Assembly: GCA_035528575.1 (NCBI GenBank)
Contig: DATKYK010000029.1
Location: 14,824-78,823 of the forward strand
Length of the DNA: 64,000 nucleotides
From: Dehalococcoidia bacterium
GTDB taxonomy: Bacteria > Chloroflexota > Dehalococcoidia > E44-bin15
Reading direction: 5' to 3'
Shown here: positions 292-7,012 of the stretch, in pieces
Position numbering within the stretch: position 1 is the stretch's first letter
Layout of the letters: each line of letters opens with the position of its first letter
Made by a program: the position numbers and the translations under genes
Notes under the pieces: model-generated
Seen by the model: only the letters and a program-made list of their open reading frames with translations
Database searches by the model: none
What the model was told of the DNA's origin: nothing

Positions 292-331
292 GCTTGACTT
301 TTCCTCCTGATGGCGGTTTGATTTATCAGTG
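292..331. repeat. Left copy of ~40-bp imperfect direct repeat (gcttgacttttcctcctgat + 20 nt) flanking the AT-rich island
   Basis: Twenty of the first 20 nt and about 35 of 40 nt overall are identical to 5413-5452. It lies 17 nt after the feoB stop codon. Confidence 0.8.
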
Positions 332-898: not shown

Positions 899-1255
899 AT
901 GCATTTTATTGAGTATTATACTGATAAAAGGGGGCGGCAACCGGTAGTTGAATGGCAAAACCGGCTTGATATAAGGAACGACCATATAATCGATAACAAG
1001 ATTAAAAAGCTTATGGAGAATGGTCTTAAGGTTCTAGATACCAATATGTTTGATGTAATACAAGGCGATGATTCAGATTTTTATGAGTTGAAAGGAGGTC
1101 TAAATAAACAATGTAGGATTGCCATTTATCATGATAAAAGGAGAAATACCTTTATTCTTCTACATGGGTGGTTGAAGAAGAAAGGGCGAGATGAGCAAAA
1201 TATAGAACAGGCTCGCACTATTCTACATAGGTATTTATCAACACAAGGAGAATAA
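899..1255 (+). CDS. Type II toxin, RelE/HigB superfamily (Gp49-like / HI1419 'addiction module killer' family)
   Basis: 118 aa. The C-terminal motif NTFILLHGWLKKKGRDEQNIEQAR is typical of Gp49/HigB-like toxins. It is followed 1 nt later by an XRE antitoxin gene. Confidence 0.65.
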   Translation: MHFIEYYTDKRGRQPVVEWQNRLDIRNDHIIDNKIKKLMENGLKVLDTNMFDVIQGDDSDFYELKGGLNKQCRIAIYHDKRRNTFILLHGWLKKKGRDEQNIEQARTILHRYLSTQGE

Positions 1256-1256
1256 T

Positions 1257-1742
1257 ATGATGGTTAGGACACCAATACAAGAAATAAAGGAGAAGCTGCT
1301 AGATTTTGAGTACAGAAAACGCTTTGGGGCTGCCGACGCAAAGAATGAGTTTGCGATTACTCTAGCGACGGTCCGTAGGGACTTGAATATGACCCAACAG
1401 GAGCTAGCAGATAGATGTGGTGCAACACAACCATATATCGCTAAGTTGGAAGGAGGGGAGGCAAACCCAACGCTGGGTACTATAGGTAATATGCTAGCAG
1501 TAATAGGTTGTCGCCTTGCAATGGATGCAAAGCCACTGCTGCAAGATGTACCAGCACCGCCGTCTACAATTACGGTCAGTCAAAGCAGCACTGTTGCTGA
1601 CACAGGAACACTCCCATTGGATTGGGAATGTATTTACGAGGCAAATGGTTCTGGTGGCTATACTGCGCCGCTGACATCAGGCAGGTATCCAATAACCGCC
1701 GCTAAATCAGATTCCCCTGCTTTAGTGGGAGGATATAGATAA
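1257..1742 (+). CDS. XRE-family HTH antitoxin (HI1420/HigA-like) with a ~65-aa low-complexity C-terminal extension
   Basis: HTH signature LNMTQQELADRCGATQPYIAKLEGGEANPTLGTIGNMLAVIG. The tail is rich in Pro/Ser/Thr. The 1-nt gap after the toxin gene indicates an operon. Confidence 0.65.
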   Translation: MMVRTPIQEIKEKLLDFEYRKRFGAADAKNEFAITLATVRRDLNMTQQELADRCGATQPYIAKLEGGEANPTLGTIGNMLAVIGCRLAMDAKPLLQDVPAPPSTITVSQSSTVADTGTLPLDWECIYEANGSGGYTAPLTSGRYPITAAKSDSPALVGGYR

Positions 1743-2161
1743 TGAACGTATCTAAAGAAATGCAGGAACTATTCACCAATGAGATCGATTTTGTTATTGA
1801 GCGAATGAAAGGGACAAATAGTGCACCCGAGAAAATGTATTTCTTTAGTGGTACATATGCATGCGCCCTAAGGATTATTAATATCGAGTTTGATGCAGAA
1901 CTAGCCTTTATTCATCACGTTCTACAAAGTGCACATCAAATGATAGATGCACGGATAACAAGACCACAGCAGGGGCAAGATAGACCTATTGGAATACCTG
2001 AGAAGTTGTTTGACAGACTTGAAGATGCTTTGAAGGAAATGTTAGCAAGGATAAAGAAGGGTGATGAGACGTATCCCGTGCTTCAGACAATCTTTAATCT
2101 AGCCTATAGCACAACGGGCAATGGCTATTATCTATACTTGAAGGGTTTGTTGCCTGTATAG
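1742..2161 (+). CDS. Hypothetical protein (139 aa) translationally coupled to the antitoxin gene (TAATG overlap)
   Basis: Its start overlaps the stop of the upstream gene (ATAATGA). There is no recognisable domain and the region is AT-rich. Confidence 0.5.
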   Translation: MNVSKEMQELFTNEIDFVIERMKGTNSAPEKMYFFSGTYACALRIINIEFDAELAFIHHVLQSAHQMIDARITRPQQGQDRPIGIPEKLFDRLEDALKEMLARIKKGDETYPVLQTIFNLAYSTTGNGYYLYLKGLLPV

Positions 2162-2290
2162 CAATCTACCCTATCTGAAAACCTGCTATTTGAACATTCT
2201 TATCTCAACGACTATATCTTATGCATTACGGTTACAACTCCCTGTGCGGGCGACATTTCATCATTATCCCAACGGAGTCTTGTAATACTT

Positions 2291-2357
2291 AAAGCTATCA
2301 CCAACGCTGACAGAGCGAGTATATCGCTGCACCATTTCCAGGCTTTCCCACCTGCCT
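2291..2357. repeat. ~60-bp repeat element, copy A, upstream of hicB
   Basis: Core gctgacag..gtatatcgct.gcaccat.tccaggcttt.cccacctgcc is about 88 % identical to 3118-3182. Confidence 0.7.
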
Positions 2358-2379
2358 AAGTCCCCCTATACTGCATAGA

Positions 2380-2407
2380 TTGACAAATATCCTATTGACA
2401 ATATAAT
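2380..2407 (+). promoter_or_regulatory. Sigma70-type promoter candidate (TTGACA-16-TATAAT) for hicBA
   Basis: TTGACA at 2380-2385 and TATAAT at 2402-2407, about 70 nt upstream of hicB. Confidence 0.45.
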
Positions 2408-2478
2408 GCAAGGGTGTGGTTTTGCATGGTTTAATTTGGTTGTTCATGGCTTCGTTAGGTAAAACAAAAGGGGGTTGA

Positions 2479-2838
2479 ATGAAAGGGGAGAAGCGACAGG
2501 CTACAGCGGTCAGTCCGAAGGGTTATGTACACCTAACTCTTGAATTCTGCAAAGAAGGCAAGAGATGGACTGCCTGTTGTGAAGAACTTGGCACCGCTAC
2601 TTTTGGTCGCTCACTTCCTGAAGCAGAGGAAAAGCTTAAGGAAGCTGTTCTACTTCATCTGAACGCTATTGAGGCTGTCGGTGAGCGGGAACGATTTTTT
2701 AAAGAAAATGGCATAATTCTTCATCAGACCAAACCCAAATCACTCACAATACATATAACTCCCAACCCAAATGTATTTATTCAAGCCCTTGTCCAGCCTA
2801 TCCCTCAAAGTCCTTCCAAGGAGCGTGTCCCTGCCTGA
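2479..2838 (+). CDS. hicB: HicB-family antitoxin (UPF0150 / RNase H-like fold)
   Basis: The motif ...EGKRWTACCEELGTATFGRSLPEAEEKLKEAV... is typical of the HicB N-domain. A HicA gene follows 43 nt downstream. Confidence 0.6.
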   Translation: MKGEKRQATAVSPKGYVHLTLEFCKEGKRWTACCEELGTATFGRSLPEAEEKLKEAVLLHLNAIEAVGERERFFKENGIILHQTKPKSLTIHITPNPNVFIQALVQPIPQSPSKERVPA

Positions 2839-2881
2839 GTATACCCAGATTCCTGCTATTTAAGGCAAGCAATTAATTAGA

Positions 2882-3091
2882 TTGCTTAAGAAAGACGGCT
2901 GGGAAGCTCTCAGAAAAGCCAAGCATGGTATTGCTTTATCAAAATCCTTCGGTGACCGCAAACGAGTCACAGTCATTCCAGATAGTCGAGCATCACTCCC
3001 TGATGGCACTTTATCGGCAATACTTGGTGTCAAGCAAACAGGACTTGGTAGGGCTGAATTACTCAACTTGATTATTAAACGTGGGCTTTAA
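2882..3091 (+). CDS. hicA: HicA-family toxin (YcfA-like mRNA interferase); probable non-ATG start
   Basis: The in-frame upstream residues give LIRLLKKDGW, a HicA hallmark. Later residues RKAKHG...K fit the family. An upstream TAA at 2861 limits the ORF, so a TTG or ATT start is used. Confidence 0.55.
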   Translation: MLKKDGWEALRKAKHGIALSKSFGDRKRVTVIPDSRASLPDGTLSAILGVKQTGLGRAELLNLIIKRGL

Positions 3092-3117
3092 CCCAAAGGC
3101 GGCTTATAGAACCTCAG

Positions 3118-3182
3118 GCTATCTTCAAAGCTGACAGGATAGGTATATCGCTTGCACCATCTCCAGGCTTTTCCACCTGCCG
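3118..3182. repeat. ~60-bp repeat element, copy B, immediately after the hicA stop
   Basis: See copy A. It starts 27 nt after the hicA stop codon. Confidence 0.7.
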
Positions 3183-3448
3183 AAAAAGCCAACTACCTTC
3201 ATAAAAGCCCCTTTTCAGCCCCATACTGGCAAAGCCGCCCTTTATAACGCTGTAACTACTTCATGAACACCTACGTAGAGCCATAGACGCCGCCCACCTG
3301 GCTACATTTTATCGGTTGTGTTGCTGTCCTGCATGTACCGGACGAGTAGGTTCTCTTGCATTTAGGTGGTTATGTTCCCCTTGATTGTGGTTGACATATT
3401 ATCCTCATTACTATATTATCCTATATCATCAAACAAAAGGAGGGCTTT

Positions 3449-3619
3449 ATGACTAGTGATGTAATAACCCCTGATATTGCCATACTTTGGGCAGCCACTG
3501 AATTAACTAAAGCATGGGTAGGTACTGGGAAAATAGACCCTAGCACAATTGTTAATACCTTTAATACAATCTATACTGGTATATCAAATACTGCAACGTT
3601 TACTCCTTTTTCTCAGTAA
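3449..3619 (+). CDS. Possible small ORF (56 aa) with a strong RBS (aaaggaggg)
   Basis: A Shine-Dalgarno sequence lies 4 nt before the ATG, and TTGACA-17-TATTAT is about 55 nt upstream. It falls below the ORF-track length cutoff. Confidence 0.3.
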   Translation: MTSDVITPDIAILWAATELTKAWVGTGKIDPSTIVNTFNTIYTGISNTATFTPFSQ

Positions 3620-3799
3620 GGACGCCCGAAAAACTCTCTTGACAGAGCCATTGAATCTCATCAAGTTCTAGCCCTTTGCCTTTCAGAAGTAGAAAGATGT
3701 CTAATCTCTCTTGTATCGCTTCAGGTATTCTCACATCAGAATTATTATCCATTATTATAACCTCCTCTTTACTACACTAATTAATCCTTATACAGGAAC

Positions 3800-4624
3800 T
3801 TAATCTTTACTTAGATACTCCACTAATCCTATCCATGTATTAAATGGCAACTTTAACCCAGCATATACCGCTGGTGTTTTACCCTTCAATGTCATATGTG
3901 GTCTTAGGAAGTTATAGTGAATGATAAAACCTTCAGAGATAGCTATGGCTGAATCTAATGTCTTTAATCCCCTAAAAACCTTCGTGCGCTCTTTGACGGT
4001 TCCCTGGAATCTCTCGATTATGTTAGTATTTACTTCTGCCGTAAGTCCCTTAGCCCTTATATGCTCACTATCAGCACCAAATACTCTCTCAATAGCATCT
4101 GGATACGCTGGCATACCATCCGAGACTATTTGCTTCGGTAGACCTATAACACGGTTGTACGCTTCAGACAATACCGCTACGGCAGACCGCATATCACGGC
4201 TTTTAGTTATATGTGTAGCTAGTAAAAAGCGACTTCTCGAATCTATAACGTCCCATAGCCAGAGTTTTCCCCCTGCTACAGAAATCATCGTCTCGTCGAT
4301 GACCCACTGCCACGATGTTTTTACCTCTAGTTTATTCAGGATACGCTCAGACTTCTTAGAATACTTAATAATCCAACGCCACACTGTAGCAGGGTCAACA
4401 ATGATTCCCTCAGTAGCGACAAGGTGTCTACTAATATCTGCCAGCGATAACCCATCATAGAATAAGCCTAGCGATTCGCCGATTGTCTCAGTAGTGAACC
4501 GCATTCCTTCGGGTGCTAGAGTACCAGCGAATTTACGCCCGCAAGCTTTGCATTTGTAATACTGAGTACCTGCCTTAAAGCCGTATTTCATGGTGCTGGG
4601 TGATTGGCAGAATTTACATTTCAT
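3800..4624 (-). mobile_element. IS6-family (IS26/IS240-like) DDE transposase with an N-terminal zinc ribbon
   Basis: The protein aligns with IS26 Tnp across the catalytic core: TVWRWI.KY, W.IDET.I.V.G.W.W.VIDS, SDGMPAY. The N-terminus has CxxC...CxxC. Terminal inverted repeats could not be recognised. Confidence 0.7.
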
Positions 4625-5274
4625 TTAATATTCATTCTCCAATATTTACCAAATAACCTTACCTCACGAATCTTAATATCACTTACAGACCAATGATAAT
4701 TTGGGCGTGGTTCAATTATCTCAACAACAATTAAATAAACAGGTTCTGGAGTATCAATTGTAAAAGATATATTATGTCTTAACCCAGAGCATTCCTGCTC
4801 CCATTCCTTTAAAATACCTGATGCCCCATTAAGTATTACCCTCCACTTCTTTGGATAATCTGGTGAATCCTTACCATGCATAAAAACAACTTTATCTATT
4901 ACACGAGCTTTGCCATAATCCCAATACCTTATCTTTTTAAATACCTTTGAGGTAGCCTTTAAAATGTAATATATAATTTTGTTAGGACTTTTACGTATAT
5001 CTAAAACGAAAGTATCACCTGTTTCTTGTTGTCTATGGGTTCTCCATTTAGTAGCTTCTTTGCCTTCAAGATAATCTGTACTATTAAGTAAATCAGCCCT
5101 CCAATGTGTCCTATCAGGCCATAATAACCTAGAAATAAATATCCACAAACCTATAACAACTGCAAAAGAGCTAGAAACAATAATAGTTATCATTCTAGGC
5201 GTCCCCGCTAACCCTTCGATTAGTGCGCTTATAACAACACCAGCAACACACATCTTGAGTATTGTCATTAACAT
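4621..5274 (-). CDS. Hypothetical membrane-anchored protein (2 N-terminal TM helices); its stop overlaps the transposase start
   Basis: It overlaps the tnp ATG by 4 nt (ATGA). The region is AT-rich and the protein has no recognisable domain. Confidence 0.45.
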   Translation of the reverse strand: MLMTILKMCVAGVVISALIEGLAGTPRMITIIVSSSFAVVIGLWIFISRLLWPDRTHWRADLLNSTDYLEGKEATKWRTHRQQETGDTFVLDIRKSPNKIIYYILKATSKVFKKIRYWDYGKARVIDKVVFMHGKDSPDYPKKWRVILNGASGILKEWEQECSGLRHNISFTIDTPEPVYLIVVEIIEPRPNYHWSVSDIKIREVRLFGKYWRMNIK

Positions 5275-5412
5275 ATTTATATAATCTTCCCTGCCCTATA
5301 GGTATGAGTATACCAATCTTAAATAAAGAGGCAATTACTCCCGTTAAGAGGAGTATACCACCACTATAAAATTGCCTCAACCCCCTACGCAAGAGAACCG
5401 ACGAGTATAAAA

Positions 5413-5452
5413 GCTTGACTTTTCCTCCTGATAGCTGTTAGATTTGTCCGTG
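5413..5452. repeat. Right copy of ~40-bp imperfect direct repeat flanking the island; contains a putative -35/-10 for the downstream surface protein gene
   Basis: It matches 292-331. It also carries TTGACT-17-TTAGAT upstream of the surface-protein start. Confidence 0.8.
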
Positions 5453-5476
5453 TCTCGGTTCAAGCTCCTACAAAAG

Positions 5477-7012
5477 ATGGCTCTACGATTCGCAACATCT
5501 TTTATTCCTCTAACAATTATAGCATTGCTGACGGTAAGCACCCTTTCCGCTGGAGCCGTGGATAATCTTTTGCAGAACCCAGGCTTCGAGTATGGACCTT
5601 CGGGCTGGTTAAGCTATGGTGGTGGCGCTCTCTCCGTAGTTGGGTCACCAGTCCACAGCGGAGATTTTGCCGCTGCCTTCGAAAGCGACACCGCAACAAC
5701 AAAGTGGATTTATCAGGTCGTATCTGTATTGGGGGGAGAAAGCTATACCTTTTCTGGCTACGCCATAAAAAATGATCCTAATATTGAGACAATTTTCCTA
5801 CGGATCTCCTGGTACCAGAGCCTAGATGGCTTCGGAACCGAGATGGCTCACCACGACTCCCTCACTGTTCTGATAGATGACGAGCCCCAATACCGTCTTT
5901 TAACTACTGATGAGCTTACCGCTCCAATAGATGCACATTCGGCACGAGTTAAAGCGATACTGGAGCCGGTCTCCGACGTGGCAGCAATTGCCTATTTTGA
6001 CGATCTACGCTTCGAAGGGCCTCCGCCAGCTACTCCTACTCCCACGCCGACACCGACTCCTACTCCAACACCAACACCAACACCAACACCAACACCAACT
6101 CCTACACCCACACCCACTTCTACTCCTACTCCTACCCCAACTCCTACACCTATCCCTTCGCCAACGCCTACGCCCACACCAACCCCTACTCCCACGCCTA
6201 CTCCTACGCCTAATCCCACTCCTACTCCTACTCCTACTCCAACACCAACCCACAACGGCACGATCGCCGATATTGGCGATGTGCTGATTAATGAGATCCA
6301 ATACGATTCTCTGCAACCGGGTGTTGATGCTTCCTTCGAGTGGGTGGAGCTCTTTAACTGCACACAAGAGCCTGTTGAGCTTGAAGGATGGAGAATCAGC
6401 GATAACTATGGCAGCGACCCGGTTCCCTCACTACACCTGCCCCCTCAGGAATTCGCGGTAATCGCCGCCTCTCAGGACTTTTACACCAGCTTCCCTGACT
6501 TCACGGGCACCATAGCCTTCATAGACGATAGCCGTGTTGGCAACGGATTGAGCAATGACGGGGACTGCCTCATCCTTGAGGACAGTGCGGAAACTGTTAT
6601 TGATGCTATGTCCTACGGCGATGATAACAGTATATTGCTGCCGCCATGCCTGGATGTGGCCGAAGGCCACTCCCTGGAGCGCCAACCCGCCGGCTTTGAT
6701 ACCGACCAGGCCAGCGACTTTACGGATAATTCAGAGCCCACCCCAGGCTACGGCCTTTCTCCCTCCACATCCTCACCCACACCCACCATGACACCAACGC
6801 CAACAGCGGGTCCCACCGCTACGCCCACTACTACACCGACAGCGACACCTACAACCTCACCTCCCAGCAGTCCCACCCCTGAGGGCACAACGCCGCCGCC
6901 TCAAGAATCCCCGGCTCTCTCTGGAATGGCGTTGCGCGCTATTCTCATTACAGCAGCATTAGCCTTCTTTGCCGTTGTTTTCTGGTTTGGAATGAGAAAG
7001 AGGAGAAAATAA
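5477..7012 (+). CDS. Cell-surface protein: signal peptide, CBM4/9-like domain, PT-repeat linker, Lamin-tail domain (LTD), second S/T/P-rich linker, C-terminal TM anchor with basic tail
   Basis: [11 protein letters not shown] is a CBM4_9 start. (PT)n spans about 60 residues. INEIQYD...EWVELFN...EGWRISD is an LTD signature. The C-terminus is a hydrophobic helix followed by RKRRK. The start is probably MALRF at 5477 rather than the TTG at 5444. Confidence 0.7.
6023..6250. repeat. Tandem hexanucleotide-like repeat (CCNACN)n encoding the PT linker
   Basis: Runs of ccaacaccaacaccaacacc and actcctactcctac appear directly in the DNA. Confidence 0.85.

What the first reader, a model, noticed from the sequence alone, without database searches (positions are those of the whole stretch)
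2291..3182. hicBA module bracketed by two ~60-bp near-identical repeats (cassette-like architecture)
The core gctgacag..gtatatcgct.gcaccat.tccaggcttt.cccacctgcc occurs 120 nt upstream of hicB and again 27 nt after the hicA stop. Each copy is followed by its own TTGACA-N16/17-TATAAT-type promoter and a gene. A repeat after each gene unit resembles integron cassette boundaries, or a modular TA-shuffling element, although the repeats lack clear attC-like palindromic R/L boxes. Copy A contains the palindrome agcga-gtata-tcgct, which is not conserved in copy B.
Basis: seen in the sequence. Interest (0 to 1): 0.55.

Follow-up and report, generated by a model that had tools for sequence, protein, structure and literature searches.

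The report
Integrase-tail remnants bracket hicBA module
The two repeats around the hicBA toxin-antitoxin genes are leftover 3' ends of a tyrosine-recombinase (integrase) gene, and related genomes show that such remnants mark the joints where small gene modules are swapped in and out; this resembles an integron in layout but uses a different kind of site.

Summary
The repeat is real and longer than reported: 2264-2362 and 3088-3184, about 97 nt. It is not an attC site or a free-standing repeat. Read on the minus strand, each copy is the last ~32 codons plus stop of a Xer-like tyrosine recombinase (…DLGRWESLEMVQRYTRS…*). Both copies are cut near the same point, just beyond a ~27-bp core (CACCATyTCCAGGCTTTyCCACCTGCC). 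Copy A keeps its reading frame; copy B has a 1-nt frameshift.

The 64-kb window holds no integrase body. Metagenomic relatives (Dehalococcoidales) carry full-length integrases with this 3' end, and many fragments truncated at residues 291-294 of 323.

The hicBA unit (96-97% identical) occurs with three different left and three different right neighbours. It always breaks at …CTGCC|TAAGTC…. Other single-gene units (SnoaL-like, zinc-ribbon, 85-aa ORF) sit between such fragments. One 574-nt insertion (L006 versus L016) is flanked only by the 34-nt core.

Best reading: these are att scars of site-specific recombination at a core inside the integrase 3' end, as in phage Mx8 or archaeal SSV-type integrases, delimiting a variable module array. 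The integron interpretation fails; the "cassette-like" intuition holds. Main rival: homologous recombination between decayed integrase fragments.

The parts
2264..2362 (-). int(C) fragment A: the last 32 codons plus stop of a Xer-like tyrosine recombinase (DLGRWESLEMVQRYTRSVSVGDSFKYYKTPLG*). The frame is intact and the stop codon is the complement of 2264-2266.
   Evidence: tblastn of full-length integrases from L013/L021/L025: 81-84% identity, E 5e-12 to 5e-10. nhmmer E 9e-27.
2330..2356 (.). Core A, CACCATTTCCAGGCTTTCCCACCTGCC. This is the proposed recombination core; integrase homology ends 6 nt beyond it, at 2362.
   Evidence: identity between the different contexts of the hicBA unit starts at CTGCC|TAAGTC.
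2363..2478 (+). 5' region of the hicBA unit with its own promoter, TTGACA-N16-TATAAT at 2380-2407.
   Evidence: 12/12 consensus match. The same 5' sequence follows different fragment alleles in L046, L047 and L049.
2479..2838 (+). hicB-like antitoxin gene (119 aa).
   Evidence: No Pfam, NCBIfam or PDB sequence hit. It has 297 homologues, many named by JGI 'predicted RNase H-like HicB family nuclease'. It overlaps hicA.
2825..3091 (+). hicA toxin reading frame, interrupted by an in-frame TAA at 2861-2863. The longest open stretch starts at TTG 2882 (69 aa).
   Evidence: Pfam HicA_toxin 30-31 bits, cut-off 27. L046 and L049 have Ser (TCA) at this codon and an uninterrupted frame.
3088..3184 (-). 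int(C) fragment B: FGRWKSLEMVQ, then a frameshift (extra T at 3152/3153), then KRYTYPVSFEDSLRFYKPPLG*. Its stop codon (complement of 3088-3090) overlaps the hicA stop (3089-3091).
   Evidence: tblastn, two segments. nhmmer E 8e-25. Sequence read.
3155..3181 (.). Core B, CACCATCTCCAGGCTTTTCCACCTGCC. It is joined directly to the conserved flank GAAAAAGCC….
3185..3348 (.). Conserved right flank of the array. The same junction, core|GAAAAAGCC, is found in L003, L007, L047 and L048.
   Evidence: blastn; alignment.
3349..5399 (-). IS6-family insertion, not part of the repeat system. It has inverted repeats GGTTCTCTTGCATTTAGG / GGTTCTCTTGCGTAGGGG and an 8-bp target duplication GACGAGTA (3341-3348 and 5400-5407). 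It carries a 274-aa DDE transposase, ORF217 and ORF56.
   Evidence: Pfam DDE_Tnp_IS240 9e-20. Ends and duplication. Absent from L047, L003 and L007.
899..2161 (+). The unit to the left of fragment A: a Gp49/HigB-like ORF (899-1255), an XRE-HTH ORF (1257-1742) and ORF139 (1742-2161), with overlapping start and stop codons.
   Evidence: Seen only in this strain's context.

Best explanation
Each repeat is the 3'-terminal remnant, int(C), of a Xer-like tyrosine-recombinase gene read on the minus strand. It comprises the last ~32 codons, including the catalytic-tyrosine motif QRYTRS, plus the stop codon. Both remnants end near the same place, 0-6 nt beyond a ~27-bp core (CACCATyTCCAGGCTTTyCCACCTGCC).

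I propose that this core, which lies inside the integrase coding sequence, is the recombination (att) site of the family. Recombination at the core joins 'stop-C-tail-core' to foreign DNA and leaves one int(C) remnant at each joint. Repeated events build an array of small modules. Each module has the layout [TAAGTC… + own sigma-70-type promoter + gene(s) + int(C) remnant].

In the window, the hicBA module (about 2357-3184, 825-bp period) sits between a resident remnant (copy A) and a conserved flank upstream of the LTD-protein gene. No integrase body lies in the window, so any present-day movement would need an integrase supplied in trans.

Shown: the coding identity of the repeats, the clustered cut point, the modular presence/absence, and the precise unit boundaries.

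Inferred: that the joints were made by site-specific recombination, that this integrase family is the catalyst, and the direction of events (insertion versus loss).
For: Coding identity. A tblastn search gives E 5e-12 for copy A and two segments for copy B. In 23 metagenome loci carrying the core, the element is the 3' end of a 323-350-aa gene with Pfam Phage_integrase plus an N-terminal HTH.

Coding signature. Among 17 fragment-only copies, pN/pS = 0.29 and all 21 third-codon positions vary, against 14 first and 12 second positions. Five full-length genes give pN/pS = 0.16. The fragments were therefore clipped from different functional alleles, not copied from one repeat.

Clustered cut point. 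Ten distinct fragments start at integrase residue 291-294 of 323. They are joined to at least five unrelated sequences within a 7-nt window.

Empty versus occupied sites. L006 equals L016 plus 574 nt carrying a 126-aa ORF, flanked by the 34-nt core only. L003 and L048 each have an extra single-gene unit between the hicBA unit and the flank.

The hicBA unit in different contexts. At 96-97% identity it has three different left neighbours (window, L046, L049/L047) and three different right neighbours (flank, SnoaL-like unit, ORF85 unit). The left boundary is always …CTGCC|TAAGTCCCCC.

Arrangements next to full-length integrases. In L013 the full-length gene has a degenerate remnant 4 nt upstream of its start. 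In L042 the order is integrase | zinc-ribbon gene | remnant.

Assembly support. The window arrangement is reproduced at 99.95-100% identity in four independent assemblies.

Precedent. attP lies inside int in phage Mx8 (PMC6070905) and in archaeal SSV-type integrases (PMC8371274).
Against: No recombination was observed: no circular or excised form, and no experiment.

No int(N) remnant (integrase body ending at the core) was seen in about 25 loci. A simple SSV-type split predicts as many of these as int(C) remnants.

Most full-length integrase loci on long contigs have no extra remnant or core repeat within ±10 kb.

Six fragments are cut elsewhere, at residues 277-287.

Apparent crossover points differ between events: within CCACCTGCC for L006/L016, but left of AATGATT for L048. 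That pattern is also what homologous recombination would give.

The core has only a weak inverted repeat (CAGG-N8-CCTG).

L041 versus L042 differ by the remnant alone (141 nt), not by the whole unit.

Several unit 5' ends are homologous to one another, which reduces the number of truly independent junctions.

The contigs are metagenomic, so some contexts could be chimeric.
Confidence: 0.7

Rival explanations
1. Ordinary pseudogene debris plus homologous recombination. The two repeats are remains of decayed or duplicated integrase genes. The conserved 97-nt stretch merely serves as portable homology, so that RecA-dependent exchange or deletion between fragments (for example after DNA uptake) shuffles the intervening genes. 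No dedicated site is involved.
For: Copy B is frameshifted. L010b has an in-frame stop. L013b and L002 are degenerate. Apparent crossover positions vary within the core region. Other truncation points exist at residues 277-287. There is no integrase in the window. Most full-length integrase loci have no arrays.
Against: This does not explain why integrase homology stops within a 7-nt window against at least five unrelated sequences. It does not explain why L006's second copy is only the 34-nt core. It does not explain why the hicBA unit keeps exactly the same left end next to a half-length degenerate fragment in L046. Fragment pairs within an array are not systematically more alike than random pairs: 73%, 73%, 84% and 90%, against a mean of 69% for all pairs.
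Confidence: 0.2
2. Integron gene cassettes. The repeats are attC sites recombined as folded single strands by an IntI integrase.
For: The array-like layout, unit sizes of 0.5-1 kb, toxin-antitoxin cargo, and mostly ORFan cargo.
Against: Neither strand gives a hairpin (z between -0.7 and +1.45). There are no R/L boxes. The sequence is protein-coding in origin. The recombinase family is below the IntI cut-off (38-43 bits against 265) and lacks the IntI-specific insert. The units carry their own promoters.
Confidence: 0.02
3. A free-standing dispersed repeat (MITE/REP-like) or a small structured RNA gene.
For: It is dispersed across many loci and genomes.
Against: There is no Rfam, tRNA or tmRNA hit. 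There is no structure signal. Open frames are conserved with synonymous-biased divergence. The sequence is continuous with full-length integrase genes.
Confidence: 0.02
4. Remnant of one larger island, with hicBA retained by addiction. Two successive integrative elements integrated at the same att site and then decayed. Only the toxin-antitoxin module between two att scars survived, because its loss was counter-selected. On this view it is not a mobile unit in its own right.
For: Toxin-antitoxin modules resist deletion (general knowledge). A hicBA homologue in L059 is likewise flanked by 59-nt direct repeats, there derived from the 3' end of a methyltransferase gene. hicA is now inactivated in the window.
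Against: The same architecture holds for cargo that is not toxin-antitoxin: SnoaL-like, zinc-ribbon, hemerythrin and an 85-aa ORF. The hicBA unit has identical ends in several different contexts.
Confidence: 0.06

Closest known systems
Phage Mx8 (Myxococcus xanthus) integration, with attP inside the int coding sequence
   Same: The recombination site lies within the 3' part of the integrase ORF, so recombination exchanges the 3' end of int (PMC6070905). It is bacterial, and the integrase is a tyrosine recombinase.
   Different: Mx8 is a 49-kb phage integrating at tRNA-linked attB sites. Here the units are 0.5-1 kb, mostly lack an integrase, and stand in tandem arrays. The exchanged tail contains the catalytic tyrosine. 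No phage relative was found.
Archaeal SSV-type 'suicidal' integrases (SSV1, pTN3, pT26-2)
   Same: The att site is inside the integrase gene. Integration leaves int fragments at element ends. Excision depends on an intact integrase supplied in trans (PMC8371274).
   Different: These are reported as exclusively archaeal and belong to Pfam PF16795. The split gives a large catalytic int(C). Here the host is bacterial (Dehalococcoidales), the family is PF00589/Xer-like, int(C) is only 31 residues, and no int(N) remnants were seen.
Integron cassette arrays and CALINs (attC clusters lacking an integrase)
   Same: Tandem arrays of ~0.5-1-kb single-gene units, each ending in a recombination-site-like repeat. 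Cargo includes toxin-antitoxin modules and ORFans. Array content varies between strains. Some arrays have no adjacent integrase.
   Different: The boundary is a double-strand-type core within a coding remnant, not a folded attC. The recombinase is not IntI. Units have their own promoters and point opposite to the integrase remnant.
Tandem accretion of integrative elements, cis-mobilizable elements (CIMEs), and tycheposon-type island arrays (from my own knowledge)
   Same: Integrase-less cargo segments flanked by direct att repeats, accumulated at one hotspot and mobilizable in trans.
   Different: In those systems the att repeats are partial tRNA or host-gene ends. Here they are ends of the integrase gene itself.
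pdif modules of Acinetobacter plasmids (from my own knowledge)
   Same: Small modules, often toxin-antitoxin, bounded by Xer-type recombination sites.
   Different: pdif sites are 28-bp XerC/XerD sites in inverted orientation and are not coding remnants.

Membership tests
Integron (IntI / attC cassette) | attC folds as an imperfect hairpin on one strand (R''-L''/L'-R'). | tested here: not met
   DNA and RNA folds of both strands of both copies give z = -0.70 to +1.45 against shuffles.
Integron (IntI / attC cassette) | R' box GTTRRRY and R'' box RYYYAAC at the cassette boundaries. | tested here: not met
   Read directly. The nearest strings are GTTGGGA (A) and GTTAAAG (B) on the minus strand. 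Both fail the final Y, and they lie at the stop-codon end, not at the junction.
Integron (IntI / attC cassette) | An IntI-type integrase with the IntI-specific additional domain. | tested here: not met
   TIGR02249 gives 38-43 bits against a cut-off of 265, matching only the N-terminal part. The best model is XerA-like at 123-148 bits, below its cut-off of 220. No recombinase gene lies in the window.
SSV-type suicidal integrase element | Recombination site inside the integrase ORF. | tested here: inconclusive
   Supported indirectly by the clustered cut point and by the empty/occupied-site comparisons. No circular form or assay is available.
SSV-type suicidal integrase element | int(N) and int(C) remnants at opposite ends of the integrated element. 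| tested here: not met
   Only int(C) remnants were found. No integrase body ending at the core was seen in about 25 loci.
SSV-type suicidal integrase element | Pfam Phage_integr_3 (PF16795) and an archaeal host. | tested here: not met
   Pfam assigns PF00589 plus HTH_3. The hosts are Dehalococcoidales/Chloroflexota.
Mx8-type integration (attP in the 3' part of int) | Integration replaces the 3' end of int with sequence from the target. | not testable with these tools
   This needs the free (circular) form or an experiment. L013 (remnant upstream of int) and L042 (int|gene|remnant) are compatible with it.
HicAB type II toxin-antitoxin system | HicA toxin domain (PF07927). | tested here: met
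   30-31 bits against a cut-off of 27.
HicAB type II toxin-antitoxin system | HicB antitoxin adjacent to and overlapping hicA. | tested here: inconclusive
   No Pfam, NCBIfam or PDB sequence hit. Homologues are labelled HicB family by JGI. Gene order and overlap fit.
HicAB type II toxin-antitoxin system | Intact toxin gene. | tested here: not met
   In-frame TAA at 2861-2863, where L046 and L049 have TCA (Ser).
cis-mobilizable element / tandem att array | Cargo flanked by direct att repeats, with no integrase inside. | tested here: met

The most novel reading that the evidence does not exclude
Dehalococcoidales carry an integron-like gene-capture system built on a Xer-like recombinase whose attachment site lies inside its own 3' coding end. 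Every unit, including an integrase-only unit of about 1 kb (L013), ends in a spare integrase C-tail carrying the catalytic tyrosine. Insertion next to an integrase body would therefore rebuild the gene with a new tail. Integrase-less units such as hicBA would be moved in trans and expressed from their own promoters. This would be a bacterial counterpart of the archaeal 'suicidal' integrases and a second, independently evolved kind of cassette platform.
Probability: 0.3. Interest if true: 0.85.

Novelty: new variant of a known kind. Interest (0 to 1): 0.6.

Why it matters
If the core inside the integrase 3' end is a working recombination site, three things follow.

First, it would extend the 'att site inside int' strategy to a bacterial phylum. 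The 2021 review describes self-disrupting integrases as exclusively archaeal.

Second, it would explain part of the strain-level variability, and possibly the assembly breaks, in uncultivated marine-sediment Dehalococcoidia.

Third, it would give a simple, searchable marker for accessory-gene arrays that integron finders miss: an integrase C-tail remnant without a body.

For annotation, it shows that short conserved 'intergenic repeats' can be clipped gene ends that serve as module boundaries.

Tried and rejected
- tRNA/tmRNA and Rfam scans of the window found nothing. This rules out a tRNA-type att site or a known RNA.
- Folding both strands as DNA and RNA gave no structure. The attC idea was dropped.
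- A search for a third copy in the window, by pattern with 3 mismatches and by nhmmer, found none.
- The genome-contig scan gave only two Dehalococcoidales MAG loci. The source genome itself is not in that collection.
- I looked for extra remnants or core repeats around full-length integrases on long contigs (L026-L028, L034-L042, L051-L057). None were found except in L042.
- I tested whether the ORF upstream of the L034 integrase is a same-family remnant. It is the C-terminus of a different integrase family.
- I tested whether flanking remnants are target duplications. Within-array pairs are not consistently more similar than random pairs.
- Viral collections gave no core match and only 29%-identical relatives.
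- hicBA homologues in L058 and L059 are not flanked by integrase remnants.
- ORF139 was found only in the window's own context.
- Sigma-54 and short-spacer promoter readings of the core were considered by eye and rejected because the spacing is wrong.

Full report
**Observation**

The region was read directly. Repeat finding gave two direct copies: 2264-2328/3088-3152 (72% identity) continuing into 2328-2359/3153-3184 (91%), with one 1-nt indel between them. The 29-nt core pattern occurs exactly twice in 64 kb, with none expected by chance. A profile search finds no third copy. The repeat is about 97 nt rather than about 60 nt, and copy B overlaps the hicA stop codon.

**What the repeat is not**

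No tRNA, tmRNA or Rfam family matches anywhere in the window. Neither strand of either copy folds better than shuffled sequence, as DNA or as RNA (z = -0.70 to +1.45). There are no GTTRRRY/RYYYAAC boxes at the junctions. An attC-type site is therefore excluded.

**What the repeat is**

An exact-pattern scan of public genomes and metagenomes returned 2 + 23 loci, the named ones being Dehalococcoidales MAGs. In these loci the element coincides with the 3' end of a minus-strand gene of 323-350 aa. That gene is a tyrosine recombinase: Pfam Phage_integrase 5e-25 with an N-terminal HTH_3. The best NCBIfam model is XerA-like, below its cut-off. The integron-integrase model scores 38-43 bits against a cut-off of 265.

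A tblastn search of three full-length proteins against the window hits only the two repeats:
- Copy A (2362→2270) reads DLGRWESLEMVQRYTRSVSVGDSFKYYKTPL, followed by G and a stop (81-84% identity, E down to 5e-12).
- Copy B reads FGRWKSLEMVQ, then a frameshift, then KRYTYPVSFEDSLRFYKPPL.

The repeats are thus the last ~32 codons, including the catalytic-tyrosine motif, plus the stop codon of an integrase. The rest of the gene is absent from the 64 kb. The 'palindrome' in copy A is simply the codon choice CGA TAT ACT CGC.

**They are clipped from many alleles, not copies of one element**

Across 17 fragment-only copies, the 21 codons outside the search pattern give pS 0.68, pN 0.20 and pN/pS 0.29. 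All 21 third positions vary, against 14 first and 12 second positions. Five full-length genes give pN/pS 0.16. Most fragments keep an open frame to the stop. The divergence among fragments therefore arose mostly while they were parts of working genes.

**The cut point is clustered**

The positions below are numbered on the 323-aa L021 integrase.
- Starting at residue 291-294: window A and B, L003 (two copies), L007, L009, L010 (two copies), L016 and L002.
- Starting at residue 277-287: six other fragments.
- Full length: only L004/L013/L015/L018 (identical copies of one gene), L021 and L025.

To the right of …CCACCTGCC, integrase homology gives way within 0-7 nt to at least five unrelated sequences: GAAAAAGCC…, TATATCTTCCC…, CTGTGGGG…, CAAATCCTTTGC…, and a TAAGTC…TTGACA group.

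**Units come and go at these joints**

- L006 equals L016 plus 574 nt carrying a promoter and a 126-aa zinc-ribbon ORF. The insertion is flanked by a 34-nt repeat of the core only. The empty site matches L006's first copy on the left and its second copy on the right, so the switch lies within CCACCTGCC.
- At the window's own locus, L047 has fragment | hicBA | fragment | flank | LTD gene.
- L003 has hicA | fragment | SnoaL-like/DUF4440 gene | fragment | flank | LTD gene.
- L048 has hicBA | fragment | 85-aa ORF | fragment | flank.
- L007 has other ORFs | fragment | flank.
- The identical HicB protein, within a 96-97% identical hicBA unit, is preceded by three different things: a different fragment allele and a different gene in L049/L047; a half-length degenerate fragment and a 396-aa ORF in L046; and ORF139 plus fragment A in the window.
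- In all four contexts, identity begins at …CTGCC|TAAGTCCCCCTATACTGCATAGATTGACA. The right-hand alignment shows the matching pattern.
- Other arrays: L010 (gene | fragment | hemerythrin-like ORF | fragment | DUF3303 ORF) and L009.
- Most units begin about 20 nt after the core with a TTGACA-N17-TATTAT-type promoter and point away from the preceding fragment.

**Full-length integrases**

In L013 (identical in L004, L015 and L018), the intact gene is followed, 4 nt beyond its start codon, by a degenerate 'stop-C-tail-core' remnant. The integrase body therefore itself sits between two cores about 1.04 kb apart. In L042 the order is integrase | 160-aa zinc-ribbon gene | remnant, while the sister contig L041 lacks just the 141-nt remnant. 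Most other full-length loci on long contigs show no extra remnant or core repeat within ±10 kb. The family is large, with 1334 homologues at E ≤ 1e-20, labelled Chloroflexota where named. It has no close relative in viral contigs.

**Mechanism proposed**

A core inside the integrase 3' coding end acts as the attachment site. Recombination there joins 'stop-C-tail-core' to incoming DNA, leaves an int(C) remnant at each joint, and by repetition produces an array of promoter-bearing units.

Two precedents exist. In phage Mx8, attP lies within int and integration creates a new int 3' end (PMC6070905). In archaeal SSV-type 'suicidal' integrases, int is split on integration. A 2021 review states that self-disrupting integrases of this kind are exclusively archaeal (PMC8371274).

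In the window, the hicBA unit (about 2357-3184) would have entered, or been retained, between resident remnant A and the conserved flank. With no integrase nearby, further movement would need one in trans.

Shown: coding origin, clustered cut, unit boundaries, and presence/absence polymorphism.

Inferred: site-specific catalysis, the enzyme responsible, and the direction of events.

**Weak points**

- There is no excised form and no experiment.
- No int(N) remnants were seen.
- Some fragments are cut elsewhere.
- Apparent crossovers differ between events, as homologous recombination would also give.
- The core's inverted repeat is weak.
- L041 and L042 differ by the remnant only.
- Several unit 5' ends are mutually homologous.
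- The contigs are metagenomic.

The main rival is therefore decay plus homologous exchange between remnants (about 0.2). Within-array remnant pairs are not consistently more alike than random pairs, which argues against a duplicative insertion.

**The hicBA genes**

HicA passes the Pfam threshold. In the window, however, its frame carries TAA at 2861-2863 where L046 and L049 have TCA, so the toxin gene is truncated or inactive. The 119-aa upstream protein has no Pfam, NCBIfam or PDB sequence match. It belongs to a family that JGI labels HicB.

**The 'second promoter and gene'**

The promoter at 3391-3419 and ORF56 lie inside a 2051-bp IS6-family element (3349-5399). It has GGTTCTCTTGC… inverted repeats and an 8-bp duplication GACGAGTA, and it is absent from L047, L003 and L007. 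They do not belong to the repeat system.

**Verdict**

The integron interpretation is rejected. The 'cassette-like, TA-shuffling' intuition is supported in a different form. I file the finding as a new variant of known kinds: an att site within int, and tandem att-bounded modules. The unexcluded, more novel reading is an integron-like capture system based on a Xer-like recombinase.

Noticed in passing
window 2825-3091: The hicA frame has an in-frame TAA at 2861-2863 (VSLPEYTQIPAI*GKQLIRLLKKDGWE). Near-identical units in L046 and L049 have TCA (Ser) there and an intact toxin gene. L048 shares the stop.
   Followed up: yes
window 3349-5399: A 2051-bp IS6-family element. It has inverted repeats GGTTCTCTTGCATTTAGG / GGTTCTCTTGCGTAGGGG and an 8-bp target duplication GACGAGTA (3341-3348 and 5400-5407). 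Besides the 274-aa transposase it carries two passenger ORFs: ORF217, whose stop overlaps the transposase start, and ORF56. Related contigs L047, L003 and L007 lack it.
   Followed up: yes
window 293-324 and 5414-5445; L007 2733-2828 and 5118-5161: A promoter-like direct repeat, CTTGACTTTTCCTCCTGATrGCkGTTwGATTT (TTGACT-N17-TwGATT), brackets the whole variable region between feoB and the LTD-protein gene, in this genome and in L007. It may be a duplicated LTD promoter or the ends of an older insertion.
   Followed up: partly
window 899-2161: A three-gene set with overlapping start and stop codons: a Gp49/HigB-like ORF (weak Pfam hit, below cut-off), an XRE-HTH ORF (161 aa) and ORF139 (no family). 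It looks like a second toxin-antitoxin-type module forming the unit to the left of fragment A.
   Followed up: partly
L059 9891-9949 and 10603-10661: A hicBA homologue (60% identical HicB) in another genome is flanked by 59-nt direct repeats (88% identical, 712-bp spacing). These repeats correspond to the 3' end of the adjacent convergent methyltransferase gene. The architecture is the same, but a different gene end is used.
   Followed up: partly
L013 6893-8030 (identical in L004, L015, L018): A full-length integrase whose start codon is followed 4 nt later by a degenerate 'stop-C-tail-core' remnant. There is also a weak partial remnant at 6618-6663. This could be an integrase-only unit of about 1.04 kb between two cores.
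   Followed up: partly
L034 5697-6020: Immediately upstream of, and overlapping, a full-length Xer-like integrase lies the C-terminal ~45 residues of a different integrase family (LRHTHAT…LGHSS…YSH), followed by unrelated sequence.
   Followed up: partly
L019, L022, L025, L051, L053, L054, L057: Many contigs end within or just after these integrase genes, and HicB homologues sit mostly on contigs of 0.5-2 kb. This suggests assembly breaks at strain-variable or repeated DNA.
   Followed up: no
window 5444-7012: A secreted or anchored LTD-domain protein with a long (PT)n linker. Its gene is the conserved right neighbour of the array in the window, L003 and L047, and L007 matches its start.
   Followed up: no
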